Source: Callorhinchus milii (taxonomy: Eukaryota). From it: a DNA stretch of 64,000 bases. The stretch lies in assembly GCF_018977255.1 (NCBI RefSeq), contig NW_024704743.1, positions 28,460,001-28,524,000 of the forward strand. The letters are read 5' to 3'. The notes under the pieces are model-generated. The model worked only from the letters and a program-made list of their open reading frames with translations, made no database searches and was not told where the DNA came from. Every line of letters starts with the position of its first letter. Position 1 is the stretch's first letter. The position numbers and the translations under genes are program-made. This document shows positions 6,841 through 63,510 of this stretch, piece after piece.

Positions 6841-6880
6841 CACGTGGGGTCCCGGGTGACGTCAGGCCGGCGGTATAAGG
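6841..6880 (+). promoter_or_regulatory. Promoter of serpin copy A: E-box, CRE, TATA
   Basis: CACGTG 6841-6846, TGACGTCA 6857-6864 and TATAAG 6874-6879 in a local CpG-rich patch; homologous to 30326-30365. Confidence 0.75.
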
Positions 6881-29639: not shown

Positions 29640-29901
29640 TTAATAATAATAATAATCCTTGCATTTGATATAGCGCTTTTCACGTCGGGAGGATGTCCCA
29701 AAGCGCTTCACAGAACGTACTGTAAAGTGAATTGACTGTATATTTGTGGGCGAACACGGCAGCCAATTGCGCACAGCAATGTCCCACAAACAGTCGTAGA
29801 TTGAAAATGACCAATTTATTATTGTTTTTTTTTGGAGGGATTATTATTAGGCTCTGTGTGGAGTAAGGAAACTTGCCCAAGGCTTCACCCTGTCTGGAAT
29901 T
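29640..29901 (-). mobile_element. 5'-truncated tRNA-derived SINE
   Basis: Inserted in AACAATTGCAAC (empty site at about 6532); truncated within the B box. Confidence 0.88.
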
Positions 29902-30177
29902 GCAACAAACATGCACAACAATAAAAGTATCTGCCAAAGGTTCTTTGCTGTATTTTACAGACCATCATCTACACAGTTACTGTATTGATTCAGAGCATTT
30001 GACACAATTGCTTTTGAAATGCTGAGATGTTTCACCATTGCAGACACTGTATCAAATGCAATGATTTATTATTATTTGAGATATGACTACATTTTACGGC
30101 ATGAAAAGACTCATCTAAAACAGGTCATAAATTTGGTTTCACAAGAAACGTATTAAAAAAAAGAATTTAAACATGAG

Positions 30178-30366
30178 GCACCCGCCCAAAGCATTTTATT
30201 CCCCGCACAGGACGACCGAAACCCGCCCAATTGGGCTGGAACCCGCCCAACCTGGCGCAACATCTCCCACCCCACCCGCCCCCGCCAGGTGACGTCAAGG
30301 AGGGCGGGGCTGGGCGGGGGCGTGTCACGTGGGGTCCCGGGTGACGTCAGGCCGGAGGTATAAGGA
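30178..30366 (+). promoter_or_regulatory. CpG-island promoter of serpin copy B: GC boxes, two CREs, E-box, TATA
   Basis: Multiple CCGCCC/GGGCGG, TGACGTCA at 30290-30297 and 30342-30349, CACGTG 30326-30331, TATAAG 30359-30364. Confidence 0.8.
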
Positions 30367-30421
30367 GCCCTGGATCCCGGGGCGGAGTGACAGACAGTTG
30401 AGCGCAGCGCGAGGAGTGTGT

Positions 30422-30592
30422 GTGCACAGCGGCTGCAGTGAGTGAGTGAGTGAGTGCACAGCGGCTGCAGTGAGTGAGTGCACAGCGGCTGCAGTGAGTG
30501 AGTGCACAGCGGCTGCAGTGAGTGAGTGCACAGCGGCTGCAGTGAGTGAGTGCACAGCGGCTGCAGGCAGTGAGTGCACAGGCTGGGCTGCA
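30422..30592 (+). repeat. 24-bp minisatellite (GTGCACAGCGGCTGCAGTGAGTGA), six cores plus a variant
   Basis: Cores at 30422, 30454, 30478, 30502, 30526 and 30550, variant at 30574. Only one core plus the variant in copy A (about 6935-6978). Confidence 0.95.
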
Positions 30593-30908
30593 GGCACTGC
30601 CTTTCTTACCACTTGGCCTGACAAAACAGTTGTGCCTGTTGTCAGTAACTTGGCACAACTTCAATCTTGCAGTCGTTACCAACATTGTAAGTTGGGTTGT
30701 CAGGTCAATTTGGTTTTCCAGTGGTTTGGAACTTAATGTTTGCATCTTTACCATATAAACCATAAGTGCACCTCCTGCCAGTCTGATTGGAACCTGTTGT
30801 CCACAGGAGTTTGGCAAAGGCCTTCAAACGAAATCATCCTTTTTGAGCGAGATCAGAAGAAAAAGCAAAATGGTATCAAAGTGTGTTTCTTTTTCAGGTT
30901 CCTTGGCG

Positions 30909-33900
30909 ATGGATCCTTTAGGTGTTGCAAATACCAATTTTGCTCTCGAGCTCTTCAAGGAGTTGACCAAAGCTGATCAAAGTGGAAATGTCTTTGTGTC
31001 TCCATTAAGCATATCGGCGGCTCTGGCTATGCTTTATCTTGGGGCAAAAGGCGAAACTGCAGCTCAAATGGCTAAGGCGAGTATGTAATCAAATTAAATC
31101 TGTGTTAAATGTTAACAGCTTTTATATAGAGACTGATCATGTACTGTTTAACTACATGAAAAGATTTGCTTTGCGGCTATTGTAAAGTAATGGAAAGAAG
31201 TACAGAGCAATTCCATTAGAATGTGGGGTTTTGATCCATAAAATGAAAAGTAAGCGAGCGGCACTGCTGTTTCTAAAGACAGTCTGATCCATCTGAAAAC
31301 CTTCAGGCTGACTGTTTTTGTGATGTGAAGGCTGCCATTGTGTTTCTAATTACCCATAGAGCAGCCAAATGATGTTTACCGGCTGCCACATGTGTTGGAC
31401 GGGAAGCTGACCCAAAAATGTGAAATGAATCATCTCAAACTTGGTGGAATCTGTAACATAAACCACTTGCGAAATGCGATGCTATAAATAATAAGAAAAG
31501 CTGGAGCGGATCAAAGAGTTTGAATTAAACTTATCCATGTTGTGATTGTGAAAATCTACTTCAAGTATAGGTAACTTAGATTAATTGTGAAAGTTCATAA
31601 AATCGTACAGCACAAAAAGAGGCCATTCGACCCATCGAGTGTGTGCCGGCTCTTTAAAAAGAGCAATGCAATGTCAATCCCACTCCCCAGACCTTACCCC
31701 ATAACCCTGCAAACCCGTCCTCCTCAAATACCCGTCCACCGCGTTTTTAAAAGGAGTTATCGAATCGGCCTCGACCACCCTTTCAGGCAATGCATTCCAG
31801 ATTCTAACAATTTGCTACATTTAAATATTTCTTCTCACCTCCCCTCTGCTTCTTTTAGATACTATTTTGGATCTGATCTCGAGTCACCAACACACCCACG
31901 AGTGGAAACAGTTTTTCCCTTTCTAACTGAGGAAATCGATTGCTATTTTTATGACCTAAAGTCAGAGCAAAATTCTTTTATGTAATAATTTCAATCCATT
32001 GCATAGCTGATTGACATGGCCTGAAAGATTGGGTGTTTTCTTTCACCAGCAGAGATCAGTATCTCTGCGATTTCTGCATAAAACGGTTGTATAGCTGCTT
32101 GAACTTAATTATATTGTTTAATGTTTCTATTAGAATCATTTACAAGAGTCCTAATAAAGCTACAAAATTGTTTAACACTTATCAATTTTGATATCAGCAC
32201 AGTTGTACAAATTTCGAGAATAAAAGTAAAACGTATTGTGACTGCATTGGACATCAGCCCAGACTGTTTGGAATGGTCCCCTTTCTTCAGTTAAAGTTAT
32301 CCCAAGTCAAATGTGTTCACAAGATCACAGGATTGGTTTGGATGAAGAAGGCCCTTCAGCCGATCTGATTTCCTCCTTCCAGAACACCCATCTACCATCT
32401 CCTCCCCCATCCCCATTAATGCATCAAGCTGCTTTTTGAATGAGTGCAGTGTGCTGGCCTCTACCATCTTTCTTGGCAAACTGCTCGAATCATTGATGAT
32501 CTGCTGCATAAAGAAAGATCTCGTTATCTATCCTGAAATTCCCCTTTACAATTTTACATCTTTATCTTCTTGTTCAGGTATCCAAAGTATTGGTAGTTTT
32601 GGTGCATACTAGAGTATTGATGTGAGGTTATTTTTTTGAGCCCATTTAAAACTTCTGTGTTTAAATCAATCTCAATTGATTTATCCCATTTAATATTTTA
32701 TACACTTCTATAGAGCCCCCCTGAGAAGTCTTCTCTCAAGACTGAAGAGTGCTAACTTGTCTGGTCGGTTACTTATAGCTCATTCTTTTAACAGCCTCTA
32801 GGACTTGGACAGCCCCTTATGTCACGGTGTTGAGAACTATATGCATTACTCTAGGTGCGATCTGATCAGAGCACAATACAACCCTGGTCAGACATCTAGG
32901 AATCTAAACTCAATTGATTTAGCAATGTAACCCAGCATCCTGTTTGCCTTGTTTATTGCTGTCTCCCATTGTTTTGAAATAGCGGAACTGTCAACCAACA
33001 GTTCTACATCTGTTTTGTCCTTCATGAATTCAGTCCCATCCAGGTAGTACAGTACTTGTGTTTCCTATTGTTGTGTCTTCTAAAAACAACCTTGCAGTTG
33101 TTTTGCAATAACAACCAGTCAGGCAAACCTAACCCCTTCTTCATAGAATAGAACTATGTAGTTCAAAGTTGTACACAGTCGAGAGCTGCTGCAGCAAGTG
33201 GAAGTGCAATGCTCTGCTGATGTGGTGGGAATGACTTGAGGTTTGACTTTTGAGAGTTTTTACTCTGCATGTGGTCCAATATCCACCTCAGTCGTCCTTG
33301 ATGATCACAAATTAACTGTAAATGTAAGCGTGAAGAGCAATAACTTTTTAATATTGTCCACCTCCTAAGAGTATCTATATTGAAACAATGCCCAGCCTGA
33401 TTTATTCACCATTTAATGTACTTTATCTTTAAAAAACTAACAATAATAATTTGGTCAATCGATCTACGATCGCTTGTGGGTCACTGCTGAGTGCAATTGG
33501 CTGCCGCGTTTGGCCCACGAACGACACGGTCAAATCACTTGACAGTATATTTTGTGAAGAACTTTGAGGCTGCATGAAGACGTGATAAGGCGCTATATCA
33601 AATCCAAGGATTATTATGTAACAGTGATATTTAATGATATTCCACTATACAAATCATTCATATGTTATTTGTATATAATAGCAACATCAATGCATTGTGG
33701 TTTATTTTATTTCAACTTTCTCAGATAATAACAGCTCCGGGACCAAAATATTTTACTAGGGAAATTTGTTTTGCTCTTTAGATGCCTTCTGTCCAATGGT
33801 GTAAAAGTATGCCCAGTATATTAATGCTTGTTTTCCTTTTTCTATAGGTGCTTCATTTTGATAAAGCACAAGATATCCATTCTGCATTTCAGAAGCTAAA

Positions 33901-36900
33901 TACCGACATCCACAAAGCTGATACTCAATATCTGTTGAAGCTTGCCAACCGTCTCTTTGGGGAGACGACGTACAGCTATCTCCCTGTAAGTTTCTTTTTA
34001 CATTGTTGGACCATGGTAGATAAATGCACCACATGAGGTGGTGCTTCACTGTATAGAACAGAAATGTCCCTGGTTTCAGCCTTTGCCCTCACTCTCTGGA
34101 ATTCCATCCTGGAGTCCCTTCACCTTGTCCTAACTTCGCCTCTTTCAGGGTCTGGCTGAATACCTTCCTGTTTGATCTTCGGTGTTTCTCACACCGCTAA
34201 CCCCTCTGTTCTCAACACCCCAGCTTGGATGCAAACCCTTGATTGTCCAGCACCTTGCAATGCCCTTTGAATGAGAAAAGTGCAATATGAAGACAATTGT
34301 TGTTATTAGCTTTCGTATGCTAGGGGACTGGGGAATAATGGGGAGGAGGATCAGAAGTGTGTAGTTTCTGATTTACTGACAGTTTAGAAGTAATTGATAT
34401 CAGTGCTCTGGATTACAGGAAAGTCTGCAATCCAGCGCACAGTCAACACATGCACAACTGTTCCCTTCGCATTGGCCTACAAAATGTCTGCTCCCTCTCC
34501 AGTAAAACACTCACCATCCAAGACGTCACTGTTGATGAAAACATCGACTTTCTCACCCTCACTGAAACCTGGATCACTTCAGGTGATACCTTCCCTTTGA
34601 TAAAGGCCACACCACACGGCTACACCTTCCATCATACCCCACGACATATTCAAAGTGGTGGTGTAGCTCTCATCTCACAGTCCCCGCTTGGCCTATCCCC
34701 TTACTCCTCTGGAACATTCCCCTCCTTTGAGCATTTTATCCTTTATCACCCCTCCAACCATTCCCTCAAAATTCTGCTTCTCTATCACCCCCAAAACCCT
34801 CTCCCATCTTCATCACCGACATACCCACCCTGCTATTTTGCCTCTTCCTCTACTCCAAACACCTCTTCTTCCTCGGCATCTTCAACCTTCACTTCACACC
34901 CTCCTGCTCTATCTCTGCTTACTTCTCCTCACTTATCTCCTCCCTCAACCTCTCCCTCCACATCTACTCCGCCACACATGTCCATGGTTACCCTCTCGAC
35001 CTGGTGATCTCTCAGGGCCTCACCGTCTTGGACCTCACCATCATTGATAAAGTGATCTCAGACTATCACTCCATCTCCCTTCACTCCTCAATCCCTCTCC
35101 CCACTGCCACCCATCCTTATCCATCTCCACTGGCTTCCAATCACACAGAGGATACAGTTCAAGATCCTGGTACTTACTTTCAAATCCATCCATGCTCTTG
35201 CTCCCCCCCTACCTCTGCGACCTTCTAACCCGTTACCATCCTGCTCGTCCTATCTGTTCGGCGGGCTGTGGCCTGCTTCACATCCCACGCCTCCCTCACC
35301 CCACGTTTAGCGGGTGGGCCTTCTGCCACTCTGCCCCCACCGTCTGGAACTCTATCCCACATTCCCTCCACCTCGCCCCCTCCCTTGCCTCTTTCAAGGC
35401 CCATCTCAAGTCCCTCCTCTTCGACTGTGTTTTCGATCTCCCTACTTTCCACCCTCCCTGATCCCGACTCCCAGCTTGGTTCTGAAACTGTCTGTCCAGC
35501 CCCTTGAGATGTCCTCCCGACTTGAAAGGCACCAAACAAATGTAATTTTGTTGTTGTGATATCAAGTTGTGACTGGCTTGTAGACCGACACCAAACCTGA
35601 GCACCATAAAATAGTTTTGTGCTTCTTTGAACCTGCGATTGATAGCCTGAGTGGGTGGTATGCAATTGGTCATTTTCTCCTCTTGTGTTGGGCAGCAATG
35701 TTGTCTCTGTTCTATTAGTGTAATTAATATCTATACTGCAATTTTTCTTAGGGATAGTATATGCTATGTATGCAACACAATTCAAGTGGGGGGAAAGCTT
35801 TAGTTCTTCACCTTCTACTTCCAATATCTTAGGATTTTCTTGCATCCACCCTGAAATTCTATCAAGCTGAACTCGCGGCAGTTGATTTTCGCAATAAACC
35901 AGAGGAAGTCAGACAGCAGATTAACGCTTGGGCAGAGGCACAGACTGAGGGTAAGCAACTCTGAAATATTCAGGTAATGCAAACAATATATGAGTGGCTC
36001 ACTTTCCCATCAGCGAGCAATCTAATGCATTTGTGTCACACAATCAGTCATTCACTGGCCAAGAAGAGAGAAAACACCCTTCTCCTTGCAGCACCAACAG
36101 CAGCAATTTTACATTGGTATAGCACCTTTCATGTCAGGAGGACATCTCAAAGCACTTCAGAGTTATATAGAGCTGGGCAGAATGCATAAAAGTTCCAGCA
36201 CCAATGGTGGAGTGGATAGGATGGATAGGGCAGGGGACATTGTAGCAAGTCAGCCTTCACTGAGCGAAGGGAAGTTTTGGGTTGGTAGGTAGGGTTGATG
36301 GAGGCCGCAGAGGTATGGCAGTTGGGAAGAGACTTTGGAGGAATTTAAGCGCAATGCCAAGGATCTAGATTTTCATCCACTGGTGGGTAGGAAGCAAGTG
36401 AACCAAGACAGGATAGACTTCCGCAGCCTGTTGTGGAGGAGGACATGAGTTGCAGTATTCTGAATTATCTGTGTAGAAGGCGCTGGGGAGTTCCGCAAAT
36501 GCTGTTTGAATAGTCCAGCCTGGACGAGATGAATATGCAAATGAGGAATTTATATAGGTCTTTAAAAATGGGAAGTGGTGAAAATCGACCAAGCCTTGTG
36601 AACAACTGCTTCAACCCACAGACAGAAATGTGAAGAATAACATGAATAATAATAATAATCTTTGCATTTGATATAGTGTCTTATGTCGTAAAGACATCTC
36701 AAAGTGTTTCATACTAATGTAAAGTGTAGTGATTGAATACTTTGTGGGCGAATGCTTGTAACTTACTTCTAAAGGACCTAATATACTATACACCTTCTGG
36801 AGAGGATATTTAAAGCTGTAAATCTTAATTGATGTAACTGAATGTGCTTGATTCCACTTCATCGTTTTATGTTCTGTGATCCACGGATCTAATTATTTTG

Positions 36901-39900
36901 TTTTTTAAACATGCCCACAGGTAAGATCAAGGACTTGTTGGCCCCAAATATTGTTGACAGTTTCACAAGGCTTGTCCTCGTGAATGCCATTTATTTTAAA
37001 GGCAACTGGGAGAGGAAATTCAACGCTGAAAGCACCCATGAGCGACCTTTCAAAATCAGCAAGGTAAATTGGAAGATGTAATGCTTCAAGATGTATGAAT
37101 ATGATCGAGATATATTCTGTTCAAATCCTGCTATAGCGCACTGCCCTTCATTGAAGACACGATGCAGACTGCTCATATACCTGAATTTAGGCAAGCTCAA
37201 TTTTCTTTCCTTACCTTCCCCAGACACCCAGTAATTGGGATCAGTCTCGTTCTTCATGTTATTGAATTTAGGCCTTGTGACGTGGTGGTTACCTGTCCAC
37301 AGTAAAGCCTCAGCCTAACTTCTATAGATTTATATTTCACAGTTCTGGCTTGTATTTTAACTTTGTACAATTTAGAATACAGTAGAAACCCGGTTTGCAA
37401 TCACCTCAGTAATCCAGCCACCTCACAATTATGGGCACATTTTCACAGTCTCTGTCAAGGTCTATATTAAAAGATTGGCCGTCTGCTTCAATGAATCGGG
37501 CACCTCACTGTACAGTACAACGGTCATTGATTGCAGTCTGCGGCAATAGAAAAGCGCGGCAGCTGCAAGTGCCCTCCTCCACTACAGACACAGAACAAAC
37601 ACTCCCCTTCACTACTAACCTGTACACAGTGCGCTAGACTTCAGGATTCTCGCACTGTTTGCTCATTGTTGCTCCTGTGGCGAGTGGGCTCTGGTTTCTC
37701 ATGCTCAACACGGGGACTGTTGGGATCGTGGAAGCAGTGCGAGTGAGATATGGACTTGGCCCAGCGCCCACGGCCTAACCTGAGCTCCTGCGGCCAATTC
37801 TTGGTAAATGCTGTAAACATGCCACCACTGAAGTTGTCGTCCTTACATGAGAGGATGGACTTGATCAAAAACAGTACCTGCCTGATAAGTGCACTTTTCT
37901 AAATCTTGTTTCCTACACCCTCTCTGATGATTGTTTTTGGTGCATATTCCTTTGAAGGGAGAGGGTCTATTTTCTCTCAGCTTCTCACCAACATCAACTG
38001 TGTTGTGTTTCAAGAGAACTTCAATGTCTTTGAGATCTGCAGTGCTATTTGTACTATGAACTGGAAACAGCCGTTACCTACAGAGTTCCCAGCTTTGTAT
38101 CAGCATTTCCTTTTGATGAACCTGTCTGATACAAATAAAACATTTCTTGTTACATTACAGAATAAAGTCAAGCTAAGATTTAAATTATTAATTGTAAGAT
38201 AAGCTCTCACCAAACAACTGCAACAAACTTGTTTGTGCCAACACAGACTGAAGTACAATTGCTTGAATTCCTCTCAAATTGAGTCACAGTGTAGCCATGC
38301 GGTAAGTGATCAGTCCTAGCACAGTTGAACAGGATTTAATTATCAGAGGGAAATAATATCCAAGCTTAAATGGGAAGGAAAATTGCGTGGTTTCTCTTTA
38401 AAATACTTCATCTGCTTTTCTCCTAAGAAGTTAACTATATATGTTTTTCTGTCTTAGAGAAATACACAAAATACACATTACCTACGAAATACTGTCAACC
38501 TACTCGTATATTCGGTGAAATGCTGTGAGATTTCTCAATGTGATAAGGCATCAAATTAGAAGATGACAATGTTTCCTCTATCCCACATCACAGTTGCCCT
38601 ATTGACTGCTACCGTTTGGAAATTTTAGCAAATAATACAATGACTTGTATTGTATGAGGGAGAAGGGAATAGAAGGATGTGAGAGGGAGCAAGAAGTGGG
38701 TGGAAACTCTTGTGCAGTATAAACACCGTCATGGACTAGTTAGGCAAAATGATCTGTTTCCATGCTGTACATTCCATATAAATTGCAAAATTCCAACCCA
38801 TAGGAATTATGCTCAGATGAGATCTACTTGAGAGTAGAGTTTCCACTTCAAGGTCATGTACATTTAGTTATTGGGAAGAAATGTTAAGTGTAACTTGTAG
38901 TTGGAATTTCTAAATCCAATTACGAATCACAGCAATTCAGATCCGTTGTCTAGCTGAAAAATTAAATGATATCTTAGTATTCCAGCTACTTAAATGTTTT
39001 GAGCTGTACTCTGTGAAGAACAGTTCCCATCTGATGCAAGCAGTCAGCTTGCCCAGTCACACACACAATATTTCTGGATGATGTAACATTTTGCTGATAA
39101 ACATGTGATGTAGATCATACATTTTAGTTTTTATTGATGATGAAGTAAGTTTTGCCGTGATATAATTTCCTTCCACAATGTGCTTTCCCCTTTTATCTTG
39201 CAATCCATTGCCCCATAAATCTTTTCCTATGTCCTCTTTCAGCAAGGTTTGTTTAGAATTGCTGATGATCTTGTTTATGTTTGCAGAATGAAACCAAGCC
39301 AGTCCAAATGATGCGCCAGAAGGCCAAGTTTAACAACACTTACATTCGTGAAGTTGAGACCAGAATCCTTGAGCTCCCTTATGTTCAGAAAGAGCTGAGT
39401 ATGATCATCATGTTGCCAGATCTAAAAGATGATGCAAGTGGACTGGAAAAAGTAAGTTGAAGTTTTTTGAAATAGTACCACTGTTAAGTGGATTCACTTT
39501 GCTTTTGGGAAAAGAAATACAGTCTTGATCAAAAATTAATAAATTCATACACCAGTCCTGTTTTCTCATTTCTGTTTCATCCCCTTATAAAGCTGAATCC
39601 ACACTTTCCCAATGATCAGCTGAATTCATGAACAGAAATGTCTTATACCTAAAATATGTCCAAAATAGGTTTAATTTGCAATATTTGTTCTGAATAACAA
39701 CATGTTGGATTTTCTTAGTTGTTATCTCATCTCTCACCCCTGGTGTGGTTTCAACAACCTGGAAGCAAGTGAGAGGACCTGGGTTCTATTCCCGGCAGGG
39801 CGAAACATTGGGCAAGTTTCCTAACTCCACACGTGTTTGCCTAGCAGTAAGTAAGAAGCCAGTTGTCGATTCCTGGATCACTTCTCTGTGGTACTTGGTG

Positions 39901-41792
39901 CATAATACAACTCATCTCATTCTGACTATCCTTTTAAGTTAGCTTAGAATTAATAGATCCCAAATCGGATCATCAAACAAGATTGTTCTCGTCCACTGAA
40001 AAATGGTTTCAGCTAAATATAAAAATATTATTAACAAGGAAGCAGTTTCAGGATTAACCTGAATAACACAAACAATCTTGTCCTTTAAACTCTGTGGCAG
40101 TTAAGGCAGTGAGGTTTTTATTACTATCGCGGTTGATTTAGCTCAGAGCTCTTATCTATTCTGTAAAACCCTTTGTTTGGTAGCAATGAATGTTTGGCAT
40201 TTGCTGATGAAACTTGGCCCGTGATTACTGAATTAGCTCAGTTTCTGCTGCAGAAAACAATAAAAGCTCTTTCTCATCAGAAATGAATACAACCCAAAGG
40301 CTTTGCTTTACATTGGAGGTCATTATTTACAAAGGGTTTGGGCAGTATCAAAAAGCTGGGTGGGGCAAAACTTTGCTCCTCACGCCTCTTTGTCTAGCAG
40401 TAAATAGGAATCTGGTTGTTCAGCGATTGGCAGATCGCTTTTCGGGGCAATAATCCCTCAAATAAAGAGATAGAGATCACTGAACCCACGTCTGTTTATG
40501 CGCAACTGGCTGTTATATTTCGCCCAGAAAATATACACTCATTTCACTTTGTAAGTATATTGTGTGAAGTGCTCGGAGACATCTCAACGACATGATAAGG
40601 TGCTATTTATTGTTTCTATTAGTATTATTATCAAAAGGCCAATCAAGCCAATGAACCTGGGAATCCAATATAAGCCAGATGACGTTTCTCTTATTTTGCT
40701 CTCTGGTCTGCTGTTTAACATTTTCACCAGCATCTAAAACTGCTCTGCACAAGAGCTTATTGTTGAGGTGATCAAGTGTGCAGTGGATGGGAGAGATCCA
40801 CATTGTGTGTGTTCGCTCCCTCATGGTAACAATCTTTCTTGTTTCTTAGATTCCTTTCTCAGCTTCACGGAGTCCTGTAGCTCAGTGGTTAGAGTACTCG
40901 CTTTGCAAGCGAGAGACCTGAGTTCAATTCCAGGCAGGGCGAAACCTTGGGCAAGTTTCCTTACTCCACATGCCTAATAATAATCCCTCCAAAAAACCAA
41001 AAACAACAATAAAAATTGGTCATTTTCAATCTACGACTGTTTGTGGGACATTGCTGTGCGCAATTGGCTGCCACGTTCGCCCACAAATATACAGTCAATT
41101 CACTTTACAGTGTGTTCTGTGAAGTGCTTTGGGACGTCCTCCCGACGTGAAAAGCGCTATACCAAATGCAAGATTATTATTATTATTCAGGGGAAATAGT
41201 CCCACCTTTTTATGTCTCTCCACAAGACTGCAAAGTACATCCTTTCAATCTTGTGAATCTCCTATTGCTTCTTTAAAATGGCGAGCCAAAAACTACATGG
41301 AATGCTCTCAACTATGAACTAACTTTCATCTGATGGTTCAGACAATAATGAACTGTTTTCAACCTCTTCTCCCCTTTTTTGTTTCAGCTTCAAAATGGCC
41401 TGACTTTTGATAAGCTGTTAGACTGGACCGATCCTGACAAGATGGAAAATGATGAGATCGTTGTAATGCTCCCCAAATTTAAGATGGAGAACACCTATGA
41501 CTTCACCTCAACACTTGGTGGTATGGGAATGGTTGATGCTTTTGATTCTTTGAAGGCAAATTTCTCGGGAATGACTGAGAAAAATGACCTGGTTTTGTCA
41601 AAAGTTGTTCACAAAACCTTTGTTGAAGTTAATGAAGAAGGTACTGAAGCAGCAGCTGCCACTGCAGCTATTATGATGTTACGATGTGCAATGATTAGAA
41701 TGGAGTTTGTGGCTGACCATCCATTCCTGTTTTTCATCAGGCACAACAAAACTCGCAACATCCTGTTCTTTGGGAGATTCTCCTCTCCTTAA
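30909..41792 (+). CDS. Intact clade-B serpin (leukocyte elastase inhibitor / SERPINB6-like), 378 aa; coding exons 30909-31076, 33848-33985, 35833-35950, 36921-37063, 39287-39451, 41388-41792
   Basis: Exons of 168/138/118/143/165/405 nt splice in frame without stops. [16 protein letters not shown]...[11 protein letters not shown]...LANRLFG...[11 protein letters not shown]...[20 protein letters not shown]...[11 protein letters not shown]. No signal peptide. RCL almost identical to human SERPINB6; B1 versus B6 orthology unresolved. Confidence 0.95.
31600..33090 (-). mobile_element. Old CR1 3' fragments in serpin intron (about 31600-31925 and 32310-33090)
   Basis: GGCCATTCGACCCATCG / CCCTTCAGCC terminal motifs; [15 protein letters not shown] on minus. 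Confidence 0.65.
34450..35560 (+). mobile_element. Internally deleted L2 LINE (endonuclease N-terminus joined to 3' end)
   Basis: LQNVCSL...[10 protein letters not shown]...GGVALI (APE endonuclease), then HWLP/WNSIP 3' region and tail GAAAGGCACCAAACAAATGTAA(TTG). Confidence 0.88.
37380..37875 (+). mobile_element. Tigger/pogo-like remnant, paralogue of 14226-15215 with a larger deletion
   Basis: Same TA|CAGTAGAAACCCGG start and position in the equivalent intron. Confidence 0.75.
40869..41187 (+). mobile_element. Full-length tRNA-derived SINE specific to copy B last intron
   Basis: TTCA on both sides; empty sites in paralogues at about 19455, 47915 and 53628. Confidence 0.93.
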
Positions 41793-54049: not shown

Positions 54050-56479
54050 CTGCAAACAGGAGTAGAAACCTTCAGCACTCTAAACTAACCTTGCTGGCGG
54101 GGAAAACAGGAAAAGATTCATGAGGAAATCGATTGCAAGATAAAAGGTGACTTGTAATTGGATTTAGAAATTCCAACTACAAGTTACACTTAACATTTTT
54201 TTCCAATAACCAAATGTACATGATCTTGCAGTGGAAACTCTACTCTCAGTAGCTCTCATCTGAGCAAAGTTCTTATGTGTTGGAATAAGGCAAGTCACAT
54301 GGAATGCATAGCATCGAAACAGATCATTTGGCCTAACTAATCCATGACGGTGCTTATACTCCACATGAATTTTCATCCACTTCTTACTCCCTCCCACACC
54401 TTTCTATTCCCTTCTCCCTCACGTGTATACCTAGCTTCCTCTTGAATGCTTCTCTACTTTATGACTCAATAACCACTTCAGGGAGCAAGTTCCACAATTT
54501 CGATGACTTATTAAGGACAGGAACATCCGAAAAACAGCACTCGTACAATACAAGGAAATGACACAAACAGTAGCAGTCAATAAGGGAACTGTGATGTGGG
54601 ATAGAGGAAATATTGTCATCTTCTCAATTTAATGCCTTATCACATTGTTGAGAAATCTCACAGCACTTCACAGGATATATGAGTAGATTCACAGTATTTC
54701 GTAGGTAAAGTGTATTTTGTGTACTTGTCTAAGACAGAAAAATATATATAGTTAACTTCTTGGGAGAAAAGCAGATGAAGTACTTTAAAGAGAAACCACA
54801 CAATTTTCCTTCCCCTTTCAACTTGGGTATTATTTCCCTCTGATAATTAAATTTGGTTCTATTTCTTAAATTGAATTTCTCTACCTTTGCAAGAATATGT
54901 AGGAAACAGAGACTTTCAAAATAATTTTAAAGGTACAGAAAATATTCATTGTGGCATATAAAAGGAAAATATAATCTTAGTCAATTCTCAGGGTTAATAC
55001 TATATTAAGCGCTTTGAGACATCTTGGCGACATGATAAGGCACTATATTAAGTGCAAGGATTATTAAGATCATTATTATTTATTTTGTGTTGCTATGGAG
55101 TCCTTTTGCAGTCAGACAGTCTACAAAATTAGGGTCAAAATGTATAAATTAAGGAACATAATGTTCTTCATAAGCACTTGAACCATTTGAAAAATTTCTC
55201 TTACAAAACTTCCCAGAAATTCCTCCAAATAGCACACATCAAATGAATACTCCTGTAGCGGTGCCTCAGGGAGACTCTTATGGGGAGGGGCCGAGAGAAT
55301 GACACTTGCGCTGTGCTACCCAGAGTCTTAGAATAATGACTATTATATACAGTACAGCTGTATGAGGGTCACAGGCACCGTGTGGTGGTTTGGATCCTAA
55401 ACCCTGTGCGAGTCTGAGAATAATATAATATTTACCCACACCAACACCAGGCCCCGGTCTCTCACCTATCCCTGCAGTGAGCCAGGAGGAGCATCAAGCA
55501 AGTGCCAGGATTAAGTCATCCTTGTTACCTCCCTGGGGACCACATACTATCTGCAGGAGAGCATCGAGTCCCAGACACTGTGAACTGCTTGAAATACAAT
55601 GAATGTGGTTGAAGAGACAAGCTCAAGTGAGTGAGCAGGAATGCGTGTGAAAGTAAGTATTTGAGATGGGAAAGTGAGCTGCAAAGATGTGACCAAAGTG
55701 ATATTGGGAAGAAAAAGAGCAAGTCCTCCTCCTGTTTACCTGTGCTAGGACTGATCACCTACATATACCGTATAGCTACACTGTGACTCAATTTGAGAGG
55801 AATTCAAATAATTGTACTTCAGTCTTTGTTGGCACAAACAGGTTTGTTGCAGTTGTTTGGTGAGAATTATCTTACAATGAATAATTTAAATATCAGCCTG
55901 ACTGCATTCAGCAATGTAGCCAGATACACAGTGTAATAAAGGGCAAAAATATTTCAATTTGTATCATACAGGTTCATCAAAAGCAAATGCTAATACAAAG
56001 CTGGGAACTGGCCTCTATCATCCTTCCTGCTAATAACTTGCAACTGTTACTTTCTATCATTTTTGAGGTGCAAATGTGACTGACATCTGATATTTTATGT
56101 GGTCAATCCTTTTGATATTTAATTGACTTGAGCTTAGTGACTGGAAAGTATTCATTTAAGATACTAGTAGACAAGCAAATGGGAGGTTCGGAGACTTTTT
56201 TTCCCACATAGAGTAATTAGGATATGGAATGCCCTGTTGGGAGTACTGGTTGAGGCAGAAGCCAGCTGAGCAGAGGCAGCGTGTGGTGGAATAGGACGCA
56301 ATAATAATAATCCTTGCATTTGATATAGCGCCTTATGACATCTTTGAGACGTCTCAAAGCACTTCACAGAATATAGTGTAAAGTGAATTGACTGTATTTT
56401 GTGGCCAAAATTTGGCAGCCAATTGCGAATAGCAGTGTCCCAAAAACAGACCAGTGACCACAATATTATTGTTTTTTTG

Positions 56480-57817
56480 TATGCAATTTTTGTACCTTGC
56501 CATTTCGGCATGACTGTGATAGAACACAGGTGACCTTTATCTCCTAATGTAAATCCGCATGCGGTAGTTGAGGCCGGGAGCAGTACTCTTGGACATGTCC
56601 AAATGTTTCTTCGTTTATAGCAATGTGATGTATCAGTTAAATGCCATGAACTAGTTACGGTGTTGTAAAGTTCAACAATTGGGACTGAATACTAGGTGAC
56701 TGGCCACCAGTTCTCTAATATGTCTGAGGTTGTCAGATCTGTTCCTTGGTGATCATTGATGGGAGCCTGCTGGCTTCCATATCATCGAGGTAATGTTGTA
56801 ATTTGCTTAGGAATCTGGACATAAGTATTGAGCAAGCGATACCTTTTTGAAAAGGTTACGCTTCTACTTCTCGGCTATGGGCCAATACCAACAAATTAAC
56901 TGAAGAGTTCATCCCTTCTATAACTTGGGAGATACTGATTATGGAATCCACACTCAACAGATCTTCTTTAATAAGATTATCCATGTTCTCCCCTTTTTTG
57001 GAGAGGATAATTTTTAATTGATTTCAGAGGTGGGCCTGGTGACCCATAAGGGTTTCGATGCCAGTTAAAGGCAGCTGTTACCCCGGTGGCTGTTATGCCC
57101 ATCCATTCAGCTACATCCCTTTTTACCCTTGGTGATATTACTGTCCCCATTTGCCCTCCCAAGACTGTACCCTTATTTCTTTGGACGAAATCTCGGAACA
57201 TTTCTTCGCTCTGTAAATTATAAAGGTCCCTCTAAATAGGGTCACAAACGTCCGTGGGCAAAGACACATTAAAATGCAACATGATCGGTATATATTCGTT
57301 CACGATATTGGGATACAACACATCATATAAACGTTCAATCACACGTCCATTTGCTGGTCCTGTAATTAAAGTCGGACATGATGTGTTCTGTGAGGTGACC
57401 GGGATGATGAAAAACAATATTTCTGGGCCGTATGCATAGATTCCTTCTGGATCCTCCACTGAACAGTTGTAATAGCCCTCATAGCGATGAAAAACGTAAG
57501 GAAATATCAGGTCTCGCTCAGTCATGTTGTTGTATCCTCTGTGTGGACCCAACATCGGGACTCCCCACCTTCCAATAGATACGTTACCTGAAGTCATATT
57601 GTGTCTTTGGAAAATTATAGTGGAAGTGTCGTACCCGTCTGTATCGACGGTACAAGTGAGAGTTAACTGGCTTCCCAACTCTACCTGTATCAGTTGGTAA
57701 GGCTGATGGCGATCTGTACCGTAAACCGGTAAGATGGATCATTTCGACCCTCCATGCTGAAAACATATCCGAAGATGAGTATCCCATTGTAGTCATAATC
57801 ATCAGTAATAGGATCAT
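56480..57817 (-). pseudogene. env: env-like gene: signal peptide, Ig-like domain, RVKR furin site, fusion-peptide/heptad region
   Basis: MILLLMIMTTMGYSS (ATG 57817), frameshift near 57740, GSQLTLTC...EGYYNCSV, TAG at 57232, RVKR 57129-57118, DVAEWMGITATGVTAAFN, then shifted GIETL...ACSILMSRFLSKLQHYLDDMEASRLPSMIT. Several N-x-S/T sequons. Confidence 0.8.
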
Positions 57818-57899
57818 TTTCCCCTTATTTCGAGCGCATACCAATTCTCTGAAAATCAAGGATATATCTGTTAGTTTATCAGTTAGTGTAATGATTTCA

Positions 57900-58991
57900 A
57901 TTGGTTAATATGATGCCATTCAGCTGTTTTGTCTCCCCTTTTTCCCGTATATTGGATCAAATATATGGAGGGGCTGATCTTGTCCACAATAGGGAACAGA
58001 CCTTCCACTTTGGTGAGAATGGGTTTTCTCTATTACTGAAGTCCAACACCATGACCATGTCCACAATATTATACTCACATTCTCGTACTTTCTGATCAAA
58101 ATACTTTTTCATTTGTTGTTTGTTTCTTCCCAAATGGTTAGTTACAAATTCATTTGTGTGTTGGATATTTACAAGCATTTTATCAACCTACGCTTCGCTG
58201 AAAGCCCCCTGTATGTTTGAGTTTCCTTCCATAGTTACGCCTGGGGAAGGGGGTTGGAGTAAGTGACCCGGTTGCCTCATTATTCTCCCTGTCATTGCCT
58301 GATACGGGGTCAAACCAGTGGCTGAATGTGTGGTTGATCTAAGCGCCATTAAACACATTGACAGCATTTGCACCCATTTGGGTGGGGTGATCTGCACAAT
58401 TTTTTTTAATAGCATCTTAATAGTCCAGTTTCCCTGCTCCTCTACCCCTGAGGATTGAGGGTGGAATGCTATGTGTAACCGCTGTTTAATCCCCAATAGT
58501 TTGGTGAGGGTTTTAAAAACTTTTGCGGTGAAGTGGCTCCCTTGATCGCTATCGAGAACTATTGGTACTCCCCACCTGCAGATCACCTCACTCAATAGTA
58601 TTCTTGCAACGGTAATTACTGTGGCAGCTCTGACAGGAAAGGCTTCGATCCATTTGGAAAATGTATCTAAATTAATCAGAGCATTTCTGTAGTTGCCTGG
58701 TGCAATGGGCAGGGGTCCGATAAAATCAATTTGAACATGTGTCCAGGGTCCTTCTGCCTCTGGGGCACCTTTTAACAGGGCATGATTGGCAGGTGGACCA
58801 GGATTATGCTGTAAGAAAACCAGACAACGGTTAGCGCGAGTGGTTATATCACTGTTGAGGGTGGGCCACCAAGTGGTGGAGCGTATTTTTGATATTGTTG
58901 AATTTACAGCCATATGTCCCCCAATTGGGTGAGAGTGGAATATTTCAAAGAAATCTTCTGCCATGTCAGGGGGAACGCACACCACACCAGG
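57900..58991 (-). pseudogene. pol: Integrase domain of pol
   Basis: HSHPIGGH zinc-finger part, WTHVQIDFIGPLP, DTFSKWIEAFP, DSDQGSHF, HPQSSGVEE, TGLTPYQAMTGR. Confidence 0.93.
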
Positions 58992-59747
58992 AATTTGTGG
59001 TAAAGGTGCCTTTACATATAACTCCCTGGTCTAACAATGATTGTACCATGTCACGGACATACGGGAGGCTTTCGAGTGGGACAGTATGCTGTTTCGCTGG
59101 TGCATGGGTTGTACCATTTATTTCCTCTTCCTGACCCATTCTCCCACAATCATATTTATGTCGAGCTACAACCTCATCGTATTTGATCAGTAATTGTGAT
59201 ACTTGTGCGTTATCGTGTTTGATGGGCTAGTACATCTCAGGCTTCTTTATAGCTGTTACGGCGAACACATCGGACACAATATGGTGTCCATCACTGCGGG
59301 TTAACGCCCTGCTTTCGGGAATACACAGGCATGAATTAGTGTAATCCACTATCATGGTGTTTTTCTGGAGAACGTCAGATCCTACGATGCCACGTTCCCA
59401 AGGTATGGCAATAGCAGCTGGCTGATCAATTTGGATGGTACTATGTATCTTGTTTCCCAGGTGATAGCAGTATTTGCTAATCTCACTCCCTCTTGGGTGG
59501 AACCATTGAATCCCGTAAGGGAAAACACATCTCCGGTTGCCCCACAAAATGTTTTGGGATGCTTTGAATGGAACAATGTAATGCTGGACCCTGTGTCCAC
59601 TAACATTGTTTGCTCTTTGCCCCACGACAATGTAGCAGTTATAAGGGGTCTATTATCTAATGTTTTTTTAAAATGAATGGGAGTGGAATTCCGTTGAGTG
59701 AGGTTCACGGGAATTCGTACGGTCAATCTTTGGGGGGCTGTCTCGCA
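58992..59747 (-). pseudogene. pol: Aspartic protease and N-terminal stub of reverse transcriptase
   Basis: MLVDTGSSIT and GIVGSDVL protease motifs across a frameshift. Then HKYDCGRM...PAKQHTVP...SLLDQGVI...TTNS (RT start), joining directly to integrase. Confidence 0.85.
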
Positions 59748-61752
59748 TCAGTAAGAGGTCTCAATAACATTCACCTCTCCTTCTACTTCGTTCTCCGCGG
59801 GGGGAGCAGATGGACTGACCGAGACTGATTCTATTCTTGTCATTTTTAAACTTTTGATTATCCGTCACCTTCCAAGTGTTACTATAATAGCCAATTGGTC
59901 AAAGGGAATCTCGGCCAGCTTATCTATAAGCCCGGTGGGTATCTCAGGCTGCTTTTTATCCTGGCGTAGATTGGCCCTTCTATTCGGGCATTCTCTGGCC
60001 CAATGTCCCTCTTCCTGACAGATGTGGCAATTGGACCGACTGATTCCCCTCCAAGGACAAGATTGTCTTGACCCGGGCTGGTTTTTATTTTGATAATAAG
60101 AATGTCTTCTATTCTCATAATTAGGGAAAAAAGGCTCTCTGTTTTTGTTCTCTCTCTGACTCTTGGGTCCTTCTATCTCTTCAACCCAGATCAACCTTTT
60201 TAATCCCCCCTTACTTCCCTCAATCTTGGCCTCTCTATGTCTCAGGCGCTGATAATAAGCTCCGTCAGCAATTTTTATCAAATCCTCCCATTCCATGTCA
60301 TCAGTTAATACTCCCGCTATGACTGATTCGATTTCAGGAATGAGTTTTTGGAGAAATGCCTCTCGGTATCTGTTTGACTTTTCTGCATCTTCTGAGCTCA
60401 CTTCTTCCATTTGTATCTGTTTAAACAGCTCCACTAGCCTTTCATGAAACTCTACTGGGCTTTCGTCTCCTGTCTGCACTGCCTTCCCATATGTCTGGCT
60501 TATGTTCCAGGCTTTTCCTTTTGTTAGCATGGTCTTAACCGCCCCTAAAAACACAGTCCCACCTACTTCAGGCTTCAAACTATTCCGCTGCAAGCGCTTT
60601 TGTACTTTCAACTCGATCGCGCTTAACAGTATCCTTTTAAGGTCTTTTTCCTCCAATTCAAGGTGACAATCTCTAAACAGATTGTATTGCTGATTCAACT
60701 CAGTGGGACAAGTGCGTTCTTTGATCGTGCCGAACTGTTGCACATAAGCCACTACTTCCTCGGGTCTTAGTGCCCGTCTATTTGTCTACTCCTTATCGGT
60801 GGTACCAGAGGCATTATCACTAGAAGACGCCTCTTGCTGGTCTTCCCCATCAGACACCTGACCCCTCGTCTGCATTGGGTGAACCCGGCTCCGAGTAGTA
60901 GTGATGACCGCTACTGACTTTCCTGATTCTTCCTCCCACATATCCGAATATATTTTATCTACTTTGTCTATGGCCGTTTGACATTTCAATTATTCCCAAT
61001 TGTTCCCTCTGTCCTAATGGCGCAAACCATCGCCTGCTTGCCCATTAGCATCTCCTTTAGTTTCTCTATTTCTTTCCCACATTGAGTGTGGTCTATCTCA
61101 GTGGCTGAAGGTCGGTTAATTAAGGTGTTAACTGCTCCATTGGCTGCATTCAACTGGATGCTCATAGTCTCACACTTCTGACTATCCTGCAGCGCTATTC
61201 TCCTTTCTTCATGCTGTTCTCTTCCTAGCTTGGCTCGGCTGATTTCACCTTGCATTATGTGTAGGGTGGAGGTTAATTCTATTATCTTTCTTTCCTGATT
61301 CTCACATACTCTTTCCATGCTCCATAATTCTTCCTCCATGTCCTTTTTGTCTGACAAAGTGATCTTTAAACCCTTTTAGTATTTCTGTCGAGCTGTTTTG
61401 TTTTATTTTCATATCCTCTATTTCCTGGTCCTTACTGTCTTGTAATTGTTTGGTTTTAAGTTTCAGATCCTCTATCTCCGTATCCTTATAATCTCGTAGT
61501 TGTTTTAACTCCAAGGCTTTACACTTGTATTCCCTCAACATCCAGTATTTAAAAAAGTTTTTACATCATTTTCCCCCAATTTTGATGTTACCTACTAACT
61601 TCTTCCTCTAACCATTCTATACCATTTTTCTGGCTCGTTTCCTCATGTATGTCCTCTATTTTTAGGCCTGTTTTCTTGCATATTTTCTCCTCATATTTAT
61701 TCAGCCATTGTTGTAAATTATCTTACAATTTTCACTCTTTCTTGTCAGTCAT
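59748..61752 (-). pseudogene. gag: gag with long N-terminal coiled-coil region, capsid-like core, CCHC zinc knuckle and PSAP motif
   Basis: Fragmented ORFs 61302-61541, 60986-61357, 60786-60989 and 59865-60752. QTGDESPVEFHERL (MHR-like), CHICQEEGHWAREC, PSAPP at about 59799-59813. Putative ATG at 61752. Confidence 0.85.
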
Positions 61753-61872
61753 CTCGACAACAGAATACCCGAGATACCAACAACCACAAGAGCGTGATCC
61801 ACTAAGTGTGCTACTATGTGTGAGTGCGTTTGTCTATCACTTCGAATAAAAAAAAGCCTTGTTGCTTGTCGG

Positions 61873-61890
61873 GTCCCTTCGTGGTGACCA
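61873..61890 (-). promoter_or_regulatory. Primer binding site, tRNA-Arg(UCG)-like
   Basis: Minus strand TGGTCACCACGAAGGGAC, 3 nt after the LTR terminal CA. Resembles the complement of the vertebrate tRNA-Arg(UCG) 3' end (TGGCGACCACGAAGGGAC, from memory). Confidence 0.75.
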
Positions 61891-61893
61891 ATT

Positions 61894-62563
61894 TGTTGGG
61901 ATTTCCGATCCCGTAGTTCGAAATATGACCTGACAATCCAAAATGGTGCAATAATTATTTTATCATAAGACAGTGTGTAAAGAAGAGCATACTACCGGTT
62001 AATCTGCGTAGAACAAAAGTAGAAGAAGATTTCTTGGCTGTCGTCCTGCTCTTGCCCTGGTTTCTCTGGTGTGAAAAACCTTACTTCCCTCCTGCCAGTC
62101 AGGTCAACTGACTTCTCACTCTTTTTCTCCACTAATTATACCCCTTTCTGAACTCTTGCCAGATACCTTTACCCCCCTTACCACTCGTCCTGCATGTACT
62201 CATCCTGATCAATCATTGGCCTGGCGCCAGCCCACCGGTATTGATAAAGTGAGTCTCCATTTTCTTGTCTATTCCTTATCTTCCTAGACCTAACACTTGA
62301 TGTTTTGCAGACCTTTCCTCCAAGTCTAGCTGGTACCCAAGGTTACAATAACACTTAGCAAAGTGCATCTAGAGAGAGGGGAGATAACGGGTGCCATGGT
62401 TCTAGCCTGTGCCACATACCATAATGTCATGTCATAATGTCAAAGAAAACCAGTAAATTTAGATTGTCAAAACCCCCCATTCATGAACCCATATTAGCTA
62501 TCATTTCAAGCTTAATTTCTGCCTTAGTTCTCTATGATTTTTGTTTTAATAATTTTACCCACA
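61894..62563 (-). mobile_element. 5' LTR of the ERV-like element
   Basis: Minus strand TGTGGGTAAAA...CCCAACA; TATA-like GGGGTATAATT at about 62133-62143. The distal boundary (62563) is tentative. Confidence 0.65.
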
Positions 62564-63205: not shown

Positions 63206-63510
63206 GGAGTCCTGTAGCTCGGTGGTTAGAGCACTCGCTTTGCTAGCGAGAGGCCTGGGTTTGATTCCTGGCAGGGTGAAACCTTGAGCAAGTTTCTTTA
63301 CTCCACACGCCTGATAATAATCCCTCCAAAAAAAAATAATAAATTGGTCATTTCAATCCACGACTGTTTGTGTGACATTGCTGTACGTAATTGGCAGCCA
63401 CATTTTGACCACAAATATACAGACCATTCACTTTACAGTTTATTCTGTCAAGAGCATTGAAACATCTAGACGATGTAAAAAGCCCTATATTAAATGCAAG
63501 GATTATTATT
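63206..63510 (+). mobile_element. tRNA-derived SINE, full length
   Basis: GGAGTCCTGTAGCTCGGTGGTTAGAGCACTCGCTTTGCTAGCGAG...AAATGCAAGGATTATTATT. Confidence 0.9.

What the first reader, a model, noticed from the sequence alone, without database searches (positions are those of the whole stretch)
57900..61890. ERV of a deep or unusual lineage (lokiretrovirus-like or spuma/epsilon-related candidate)
Seen: gag opens with about 250 aa of K/E/Q-rich heptad coiled coil and has a single CCHC knuckle. Pol has HKYDCGR before RT and a WTHVQIDFIGPLP integrase. The PBS is tRNA-Arg-like and env is not gamma-type. Inference: this combination does not fit common gamma/beta ERVs or env-less Gypsy elements. It recalls lokiretroviruses, which I remember from lampreys, bony fishes, amphibians and reptiles, so a copy in a probable cartilaginous fish could extend the host range.
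Basis: partly seen in the sequence, partly recalled or inferred. Interest (0 to 1): 0.7.

Follow-up and report, generated by a model that had tools for sequence, protein, structure and literature searches.

The report
Chimaera retrovirus fossil with F-type envelope
This is a dead copy of an elephant-shark endogenous retrovirus whose polymerase groups with an already described snakehead-virus-like lineage and not with lokiretroviruses, but whose envelope carries an antibody-like domain and is predicted to fold like measles/RSV-type fusion proteins, while its closest relatives in the same genome carry an ordinary gamma-type envelope or none.

Summary
The motifs are real; the lokiretrovirus reading is not supported. 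The window holds a broken provirus (minus strand, 62422-56476): most of RT-RNase H is deleted, env is cut short and the 3' LTR is missing. The host is the elephant shark: a sister locus matches the published CmiERV lineage I (SnRV-like) almost letter for letter. RT from sister copies falls inside Retroviridae as sister to CmiERV-I (100/98); grouping with Loki is rejected (AU p=0.027). The window's own integrase agrees (100/100). Snakehead retrovirus itself shows the coiled-coil Gag, single CCHC, HRNDCG motif and in-frame gag-pol stop. The part not found in print is the env: Ig-like head, furin site and a predicted paramyxo/pneumovirus-F fold, detectably related to Loki Env. Sister tRNA-Ser elements carry gamma-type env or none, implying an env swap. 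The scan noted this env type before in two other shark-type genomes. Two side results: true Loki ORFs in this assembly sit on small contigs that look like lamprey contamination (99.5% to a Lethenteron protein); and three shark orders keep an intact 85-88% identical env of this family, a candidate domesticated F-type fusogen.

The parts
61893..62422 (-). 5' LTR, lacking about the first 126 bases of the sister's 669-bp LTR
   Evidence: 92% to both LTRs of the full-length sister on G000:C23; 32 near-full-length LTR matches at 76-100% among 46 matches, 40 of 175 candidates scored
61873..61890 (-). primer binding site, tRNA-Arg(TCG)
   Evidence: 16/18 to host tRNA gene L043 + CCA; 18/18 in three sisters
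59751..61752 (-). gag, broken by stops and frameshifts; start inferred from the ATG at 61752
   Evidence: translations; 79% aa to the sister and 22-25% to CmiERV-I-group gag
61118..61544 (-). K/E/Q-rich, probably coiled-coil Gag segment
   Evidence: K+E+Q 28-35%; heptad periodicity not above shuffles
59988..60029 (-). single CCHC zinc knuckle (NC)
   Evidence: PF00098 E 1.7e-6; best PDB hit MLV NCp10
59748..59750 (-). in-frame TGA between gag and pro-pol (likely read-through site)
   Evidence: stop at the same position in the window and 3 of 5 aligned relatives (2 TGA, 1 TAA; one has a sense codon, one is unreadable); same layout in CmiERV-I and SnRV
59300..59747 (-). aspartic protease, DTG at 59586-59603, frameshifted
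   Evidence: RVP E 0.05
58999..59226 (-). PR-RT linker with HKYDCGR and the first residues of RT
   Evidence: an H-K/R-x-D-C-G type motif is shared by SnRV, frog and coelacanth relatives and was not found in 5 of 5 Loki proteins from the search
58991..58998 (.). junction of an internal deletion of about 1.9 kb (RT, tether, RNase H)
   Evidence: 8-base overlap of the blastn blocks against sisters
57892..58990 (-). integrase (zinc finger with second Cys lost, DDE core, C-terminal part broken)
   Evidence: PF17921, PF00665; motif positions; tree
56476..57817 (-). env, broken: signal peptide 57782-57817, Ig-like domain about 57463-57669, CPxxxxGP start of the F-type core 57355-57378, furin site PRVKR 57118-57132, fusion peptide from 57117; internal deletion near 56670-56684; 3' part with the membrane anchor missing
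   Evidence: PF13927 E 3.8e-4 (20.8-21.3 bits, below the curated cut-off); tblastn to shark env P0288 E 4e-15; 90% DNA to the sister env; 3' part absent from the window and 10 kb on each side
56300..56449 (.). host SINE-like repeat just beyond the point where the provirus breaks off
   Evidence: repeat family D2; many hits in all large-contig loci

Best explanation
This is a dead provirus of a multi-copy, tRNA-Arg-primed endogenous retrovirus family of the elephant shark whose RT and integrase group with CmiERV lineage I (class III, clade Huo, SnRV-like), and whose env has an Ig-like head on a core predicted to fold like paramyxo/pneumovirus F. Shown: LTR-PBS-gag-(in-frame stop)-pro-pol-env-LTR layout in a 9.06-kb sister, with tether plus RNase H in another sister. 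Inferred mechanism of the once-active virus: tRNA-Arg-primed reverse transcription; Gag-Pol made by read-through of the gag stop; Env cleaved by furin at RVKR, exposing an N-terminal fusion peptide and refolding like a class Ib (F-type) fusogen, with the Ig-like head the likely receptor-binding module. Because the frog outgroup element carries the same Ig+F env, the gamma-type env of CmiERV-I is probably the later replacement. This copy can do none of this: RT-RNase H is deleted, env truncated, 3' LTR lost.
For: Host and anchor: L027+L028 reproduces CmiERV_Scaffold 2 of PMC4422223 supplement 1 over the 1.36 kb compared by eye, and its LTR pair differs at 25 of 831 sites against the published 0.033. 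RT tree, 58 rows, 258 columns, LG+G4: Loki 100/100, Retroviridae 100/97, family+CmiERV-I 100/98, plus X. tropicalis 99/96. AU rejects family+Loki (p=0.027), family+gamma/epsilon (1.9e-5) and family+Gypsy (0.024). IN tree with the window's own ORF, 50 rows: window+CmiERV-I group+X. tropicalis 100/100, Loki separate 100/100. SnRV contig L065 (RT identical by eye to the SnRV row of the PMC7947760 supplement) has a coiled-coil Gag, one CCHC, HRNDCG and an in-frame TAG. Env: 22 homologues in 1.84 billion representatives, those with names from sharks, a skate, coelacanth and frogs. AlphaFold2 of the sister env with X at stops (mean pLDDT 66) gives NDV F Z 10.2 (322 aligned, rmsd 23.5), GhV F 9.2, measles F 8.9 and foamy Env 8rm0 Z 8.4 (270 aligned, rmsd 5.6) among 48,161 chains. 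The intact shark homologue (pLDDT 59) gives RSV/hPIV3 F at E 2e-10 to 4e-10 and Nipah F Z 12.0 (287 aligned, rmsd 5.3). BFVD hits include walleye epsilonretrovirus and feline foamy Env. Sisters with a tRNA-Ser-type PBS carry gamma env (2 of 4) or no env (2 of 4). X. tropicalis gene model P0001 joins this clade's pol to a signal peptide+Ig+CP..SGL env start.
Against: SnRV is not recovered as direct sister: unresolved in RT (AU p=0.34, neither shown nor rejected), distant and on a long branch in IN. The SnRV-like label therefore rests on Han 2015's placement of CmiERV-I and on shared anatomy. No true foamy virus RT was in my trees, and the best PDB hits for the RT are foamy PR-RT (109 bits against 80 for MLV), so a foamy-like (CmiFLERV) label is not excluded. 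The env profile scores Loki Env (47-56 bits) above SnRV Env (7-18 bits). Models are moderate (pTM 0.41 and 0.49), rmsd values are large, the Ig head is unmodelled, and Z 8-10 is near the level helical bundles reach by chance. The foamy Env sequence hit of profile A1 (E 2.4e-5) vanished with profile A2. PF00523 was not hit. Trees used LG+G4 without the mixture model. The direction of the env swap rests on one automated gene model.
Confidence: 0.8

Rival explanations
1. It is a lokiretrovirus, extending that lineage to cartilaginous fish.
For: F-type env with RXKR site, fusion peptide and membrane anchor, as described for Loki (PMC7947760); env profile hits lamprey Loki Env at E 1.3e-14, best of 300 shuffles E 0.86; dual RNase H.
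Against: RT inside Retroviridae and AU p=0.027; IN separate from the Loki clade; motif B LPQGFH against CPFGY; CCHC Gag and gag-pol stop, whereas the Loki copy L031 has no CCHC match and one 2200-aa ORF; C. milii was screened and not marked positive in that paper's Table S2.
Confidence: 0.04
2. It is one of the foamy-like CmiFLERVs (clade Tu), whose gag and env were not found in 2017; the env would be a foamy-type env inherited with pol.
For: CmiFLERVs cluster with a X. tropicalis element (PMC5512871 passages), as this clade does; best PDB RT hits are foamy; foamy Env is hit by profile A1 and by structure.
Against: CCHC knuckle, in-frame gag-pol stop and Arg PBS are unlike foamy viruses (features recalled; Lys/Asn PBS); the sister lineage was placed with SnRV by Han 2015; the CmiFLERV accessions refer to an older assembly and could not be mapped.
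Confidence: 0.12
3. The F-type env was captured recently by this family from a lokiretrovirus or a negative-strand RNA virus, and gamma-type env is the ancestral state of the clade.
For: Loki Env is the best-scoring outside relative; env exchange among anamniote ERVs is reported (10.1101/2021.11.23.469661 passages).
Against: Pairwise scores to Loki Env are near zero (6 bits for the family env), so the link is ancient; the same env type sits on the frog outgroup and in coelacanth, skate and sharks; SnRV Env aligns over 292 columns (hhalign probability 78%).
Confidence: 0.15

Closest known systems
CmiERV lineage I of Callorhinchus milii (Han 2015, PMC4422223; SnRV-like)
   Same: Sister group in RT and IN trees; 51% IN and detectable Gag identity; K/E/Q-rich Gag, one CCHC, in-frame TGA before pro, HKHDCG motif.
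   Different: CmiERV-I has a TGGCGTAGTCGGCAGGAT PBS (tRNA-Ser type, recalled) and a gamma-type env; this family has tRNA-Arg(TCG) and an Ig+F-type env.
Snakehead retrovirus (SnRV; contig L065) and clade Huo / class III ERVs (PMC6001957)
   Same: Coiled-coil Gag, single CCHC, in-frame gag-pol stop, HRNDCG, LPQGFH and YVDD, non-gamma env weakly alignable to this env family; Arg PBS (assignment for SnRV recalled; Hart 1996 not held).
   Different: Not resolved as sister; IN only 30% identical and with MLVIN_C; PBS matches this tRNA-Arg(TCG) at only 11/18; SnRV env is 1134 aa and has a further ORF downstream.
Lokiretroviruses (Wang and Han 2021, PMC7947760)
   Same: F-like Env with RXKR site; dual RNase H; env profile homology E 1e-14.
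   Different: RT outside Retroviridae, CPFGY motif, separate IN clade; the copy examined has no CCHC and a continuous gag-pol ORF.
Foamy virus Env and paramyxo/pneumovirus F (PMC11468914; PDB 8RM0, 8OZH, 3MAW, 1ZTM, 6APB)
   Same: Predicted core fold and domain order.
   Different: Sequence identity 7-14%; an Ig-like N-terminal head instead of the foamy leader peptide and receptor-binding domain (recalled); Gag and Pol are not foamy in layout.

Membership tests
Lokiretrovirus | RT falls in the Loki clade, sister to all other retroviruses | tested here: not met
   (AU p=0.027); Loki rows identified by near identity to the Loki-Pma row in the supplement and by the CPFGY motif
Lokiretrovirus | Integrase in the Loki/CGIN1 group | tested here: not met
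   window IN in a 100/100 clade with CmiERV-I, Loki separate 100/100; CGIN1 itself not included
Lokiretrovirus | Env with signal peptide, RXKR, fusion peptide, coiled coil, membrane anchor, similar to Mononegavirales F | tested here: met
   PF00523 itself not hit
Lokiretrovirus | Tether plus RNase H (shared with all retroviruses) | tested here: met
   L017: PF17917/PF17919 and PF00075; deleted in the window copy
Lokiretrovirus | Optional smc gene | tested here: inconclusive
   no extra ORF of 200 aa or more inside the sister provirus, but the copy is degraded and no SMC profile was run
Class III / clade Huo (SnRV-like, CmiERV lineage I) | Pol groups with the published CmiERV lineage I | tested here: met
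   RT 100/98, IN 100/100 including X. tropicalis; anchor verified
Class III / clade Huo (SnRV-like, CmiERV lineage I) | Direct grouping with SnRV | tested here: inconclusive
   AU p=0.34; polytomy; long branch
Class III / clade Huo (SnRV-like, CmiERV lineage I) | SnRV anatomy: coiled-coil Gag, one CCHC, in-frame gag-pol stop, Arg PBS | tested here: met
   heptad periodicity of this family's Gag not demonstrated
Spumaretrovirinae / FLERV | Gag without CCHC knuckle; Pol expressed apart from Gag (recalled) | tested here: not met
   CCHC present; gag and pro in one frame with a single stop
Spumaretrovirinae / FLERV | RT groups with foamy viruses | tested here: inconclusive
   no foamy reference in the tree; best PDB hits are foamy RT
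Gamma/epsilon (class I) ERVs | RT in the gamma/epsilon clade | tested here: not met
   AU p=1.9e-5; reference rows labelled from Pfam domains and host names, not from named viruses
Gamma-type env | TLV_coat with immunosuppressive domain and CX6CC | tested here: not met
   (positive control L028 E 1.5e-10)
Ty3/Gypsy (Metaviridae) | Single RNase H, RT in Metaviridae | tested here: not met
   dual RNase H; AU p=0.024
Odin retrotransposons | RT sister to Loki + retroviruses, cnidarian hosts (recalled; search listing only) | not tested
   no Odin reference obtained; the RT sits inside Retroviridae at 100/97

The most novel reading that the evidence does not exclude
The Ig+F-type (class Ib) env is an ancient retroviral envelope retained across Loki, foamy, epsilon, SnRV and this class III clade and repeatedly replaced by gamma-type env. 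One member was domesticated in galeomorph sharks: an intact 739-754-aa ORF, 85-88% identical in Chiloscyllium, Scyliorhinus and Heterodontus, which would be a captured retroviral env of the F type rather than the syncytin (gamma) type.
Probability: 0.4. Interest if true: 0.75.

Novelty: new variant of a known kind. Interest (0 to 1): 0.45.

Why it matters
The locus does not extend the Loki host range. It does show that an F-type envelope, treated as a Loki hallmark and a foamy-virus surprise, also sits on ordinary class III polymerases, and that sister lineages in one genome differ in fusogen class. That makes the ancestral retroviral envelope a testable question. The two env screens I read used only gamma- or beta-type queries, or required ISD and CX6CC, so they would miss this family and the conserved shark gene. 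The lamprey-like contigs would give a false 'chondrichthyan Loki' in any screen of this assembly.

Tried and rejected
Viral-contig scan with the frog Pol found no relative. Pfam gave nothing for the sister env or, apart from a weak V-set hit in one, for 17 homologues. ESM Atlas gave only a 0.82 unnamed cluster. Profile A2 found no PDB sequence. The Ig piece found no PDB sequence. The word-indexed env search returned 2 proteins and missed its own members, so it says nothing about range. The first FastTree was mis-rooted and was replaced. The heptad test was negative for this family. No 3' LTR or env tail in the window or 10 kb either side. No orthologue of the conserved shark env in G000 (best 35%, 59 of 75 candidates scored). 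Loki on small contigs was rejected as host DNA. Papers not held: Hart 1996, Wang, Chen and Cui 2023 on cartilaginous-fish foamy ERVs, a recalled co-option paper. Any of these may already describe parts of this. Searches that found no description of an Ig+F env on class III ERVs or of the shark gene. bioRxiv supplements were closed. Rows left out of the careful RT tree: 250 Pol proteins had RT coverage, 155 remained after dereplication, and 52 were chosen by hand, plus 6 genome copies.
Full report
Anatomy. The element reads on the minus strand. From 62422 down: a partial LTR (92% to both LTRs of a full-length sister), a PBS at 61890-61873, a broken gag with a K/E/Q-rich N-terminal segment and one CCHC knuckle, a single in-frame TGA at 59750-59748, protease, the HKYDCGR linker and the first residues of RT. 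A deletion of about 1.9 kb then jumps, through an 8-base overlap, to integrase. Env starts at 57817 with a signal peptide, an Ig-like domain (PF13927 E 3.8e-4, below cut-off), a PRVKR furin site and a hydrophobic peptide, and breaks off at 56476 beside a host repeat. The env tail and 3' LTR are absent from the window and from 10 kb on each side. The '250-aa heptad coiled coil' is overstated: about 140 codons are K/E/Q-rich, and my heptad test did not beat shuffles, although it did for SnRV Gag.

Family and host. The integrase search gave 144 matches in G000 (138 of 873 candidates scored), and the LTR search gave 32 near-full-length matches. The best sister (C23) is a 9.06-kb provirus, 90% identical, with LTRs 99.1% alike, an RT with YMDD and a complete but broken env. 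Another sister shows tether plus RNase H. The PBS is 18/18 to a host tRNA-Arg(TCG) gene plus CCA in three sisters and 16/18 in the window. The locus at C15 reproduces 'CmiERV_Scaffold 2' of Han 2015 (PMC4422223; part 1 of 2 of the main text and part 1 of 3 of supplement 1 read). This identifies the host as Callorhinchus milii and gives a named anchor: lineage I, which that paper clusters with snakehead retrovirus.

Phylogeny. Anchors came from tools. P0013 and contig L065 are SnRV, by identity with the SnRV RT row in the supplement of PMC7947760 (parts 1-2 of 4 of the text, supplement part 1 and passages). Loki rows were recognised by near identity to the Loki-Pma row and by the CPFGY motif. 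Other labels rest on Pfam domains and host names. In the RT tree (58 rows) Loki is monophyletic (100/100) and Retroviridae is too (100/97). The family is sister to CmiERV-I (100/98), then to a Xenopus tropicalis element (99/96), inside a weaker frog/coelacanth group (87/89). AU tests reject joining it to Loki (p=0.027), gamma/epsilon (1.9e-5) or Gypsy (0.024), and leave a clade with SnRV open (0.34). The window's own integrase gives the same neighbours (100/100). No foamy RT was available for the tree, and foamy RT is the best PDB hit. Overlap with the CmiFLERVs of PMC5512871 (passages, section 5 and supplement passages), which also group with a Xenopus element, could not be settled. Xu et al. 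2018 (PMC6001957, passages) name the SnRV-related class III group clade Huo and report it in all major vertebrate lineages.

The 'unusual' features are SnRV-type features. L065 shows a coiled-coil Gag, one CCHC, an in-frame TAG before pro and HRNDCG before RT. Its PBS differs from this family's (11/18); its Arg assignment is recalled, as Hart 1996 was not held.

Env. The sister env, read with X at stops, has no Pfam hit but finds 22 relatives among 1.84 billion representatives. Named ones come from sharks, a skate, coelacanth and frogs. Two AlphaFold2 models (intact shark homologue, pLDDT 59; sister env, pLDDT 66) match pneumo- and paramyxovirus F: Foldseek E down to 2e-10, Z 12.0 for Nipah F; in the unbiased wide search NDV F 10.2, GhV F 9.2, measles F 8.9, foamy Env 8.4. 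These Z values are modest and some rmsd values large, but the F-type rows align 263-328 residues where most helical decoys align 70-110 (at most 183). Predicted viral structures add walleye epsilonretrovirus Env, feline foamy Env, baculovirus F and a fish filovirus glycoprotein. By sequence profile the nearest outside relative is lamprey Loki Env (E 1.3e-14; best of 300 shuffles 0.86), then SnRV Env (E 1e-5 to 0.02), while pairwise scores are near zero. A foamy Env hit appeared with one profile and not with another. The foamy-F link is published (PMC11468914, passages), as is the Loki-F link.

Env swap. Four sisters with the tRNA-Ser-type PBS carry gamma env (2) or no detectable env (2), while three loci carry the F-type env. 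The Xenopus outgroup gene model P0001 joins this clade's pol to the start of an Ig+F env. Parsimony therefore makes the gamma env of CmiERV-I the replacement; this rests on one gene model.

Mechanism. Shown: layout, PBS, conserved gag stop, dual RNase H, env domain order. Inferred: tRNA-Arg priming, stop read-through, furin activation and F-like refolding, receptor binding by the Ig-like head. The window copy is inert.

Side results. Real Loki elements occur in G000 only on small contigs among the matches scored. One is 99.5% identical to a Lethenteron protein, and the 12 stretches tested share no repeat with the window, against 25 of 25 large-contig stretches. They are most likely lamprey contamination, which the scan noted earlier for other pieces of this genome. 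An intact env of this family is 85-88% identical across three shark orders and has no orthologue here. The chondrichthyan syncytin screen (10.64898/2026.05.06.723177, parts 1-2 of 4) required ISD and CX6CC and would not have kept it; the anamniote env survey (10.1101/2021.11.23.469661, passages) covered gamma- and beta-type env only. Passages of PMC8278194, PMC13524379, PMC12583693, PMC11521997 and PMC10699275 added nothing on this env. Domestication is untested.

Prior notes. Two earlier reports of this scan reached the same reading on other shark-type genomes. They are not independent support; my reading was recorded before I saw them.

Verdict. Known pol lineage, already catalogued for this host; not Loki; an env variant I did not find in print (searches; three relevant papers not held). 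Novelty: new variant of a known kind. Interest 0.45.

Noticed in passing
G000 contigs C364, C466 (L031), C548 (L032), C556, C771, C909, C1182: Genuine lokiretrovirus ORFs (one 2200-aa gag-pol). All 8 RT matches at 96-100% among 149 scored (839 candidates) lie on small contigs; the next best is 41%. L032 is 99.5% identical over 1524 aa to a Lethenteron reissneri protein. 0 of 12 ten-kb stretches share any repeat with the window, against 25 of 25 large-contig stretches; CpG o/e 0.68-1.00 against 0.40-0.69. Most likely lamprey DNA in the assembly; horizontal transfer is not formally excluded.
   Followed up: yes
P0288 (Chiloscyllium punctatum), P0326 (Scyliorhinus torazame), P0327 (Heterodontus francisci): Intact full-length env of this family, 85-88% identical across three shark orders, the last two colinear without gaps over 754 aa, furin site and fusion peptide kept; no orthologue in G000. 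Candidate domesticated F-type env. Synteny, dN/dS and expression untested.
   Followed up: partly
G000:C23:3699918-3708976 (L021/L022): Full-length, defective sister provirus with 669-bp LTRs differing at 6 sites (K2P 0.009); about 20 million years at the rate assumed in PMC4422223, a rate its author flags as uncertain.
   Followed up: yes
G000:C2:11.41 Mb (L029/L030) and C5:55.63 Mb (L025/L026): Relatives of CmiERV-I in which neither env query matched, with LTR pairs at 99.5% and 96.5%: three env states (F-type, gamma, none) within one pol clade.
   Followed up: partly
IN tree: Loki integrases nest with frog and coelacanth class III integrases (95/89) although their RTs are far apart, in line with the domain shuffling proposed in PMC7947760.
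   Followed up: no
P0295 cluster (Mantella aurantiaca): A 16-member cluster of this env type, 12 of the 15 listed at 677 aa, on large frog scaffolds: probably a recently active ERV.
   Followed up: no
BFVD hits: Walleye epsilonretrovirus Envs (WEHV-1, WDSV) and a fish filovirus glycoprotein match the F-type models at E 1e-8 to 1e-13.
   Followed up: no
window 1383-1454, 4513-4582, 24056-24126, 40872-40941, 63208-63279; 5922-20017 versus 29343-41760: The five tRNA-Ala calls sit at or beside copies of a repeat and are probably SINE heads; the window also holds duplicated blocks about 20-23 kb apart at 82-98% identity.
   Followed up: no
L013/L014 (G000:C1:120.10 Mb): A copy of this family is interleaved with a CmiERV-I-like element and LINE-like sequence.
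   Followed up: no
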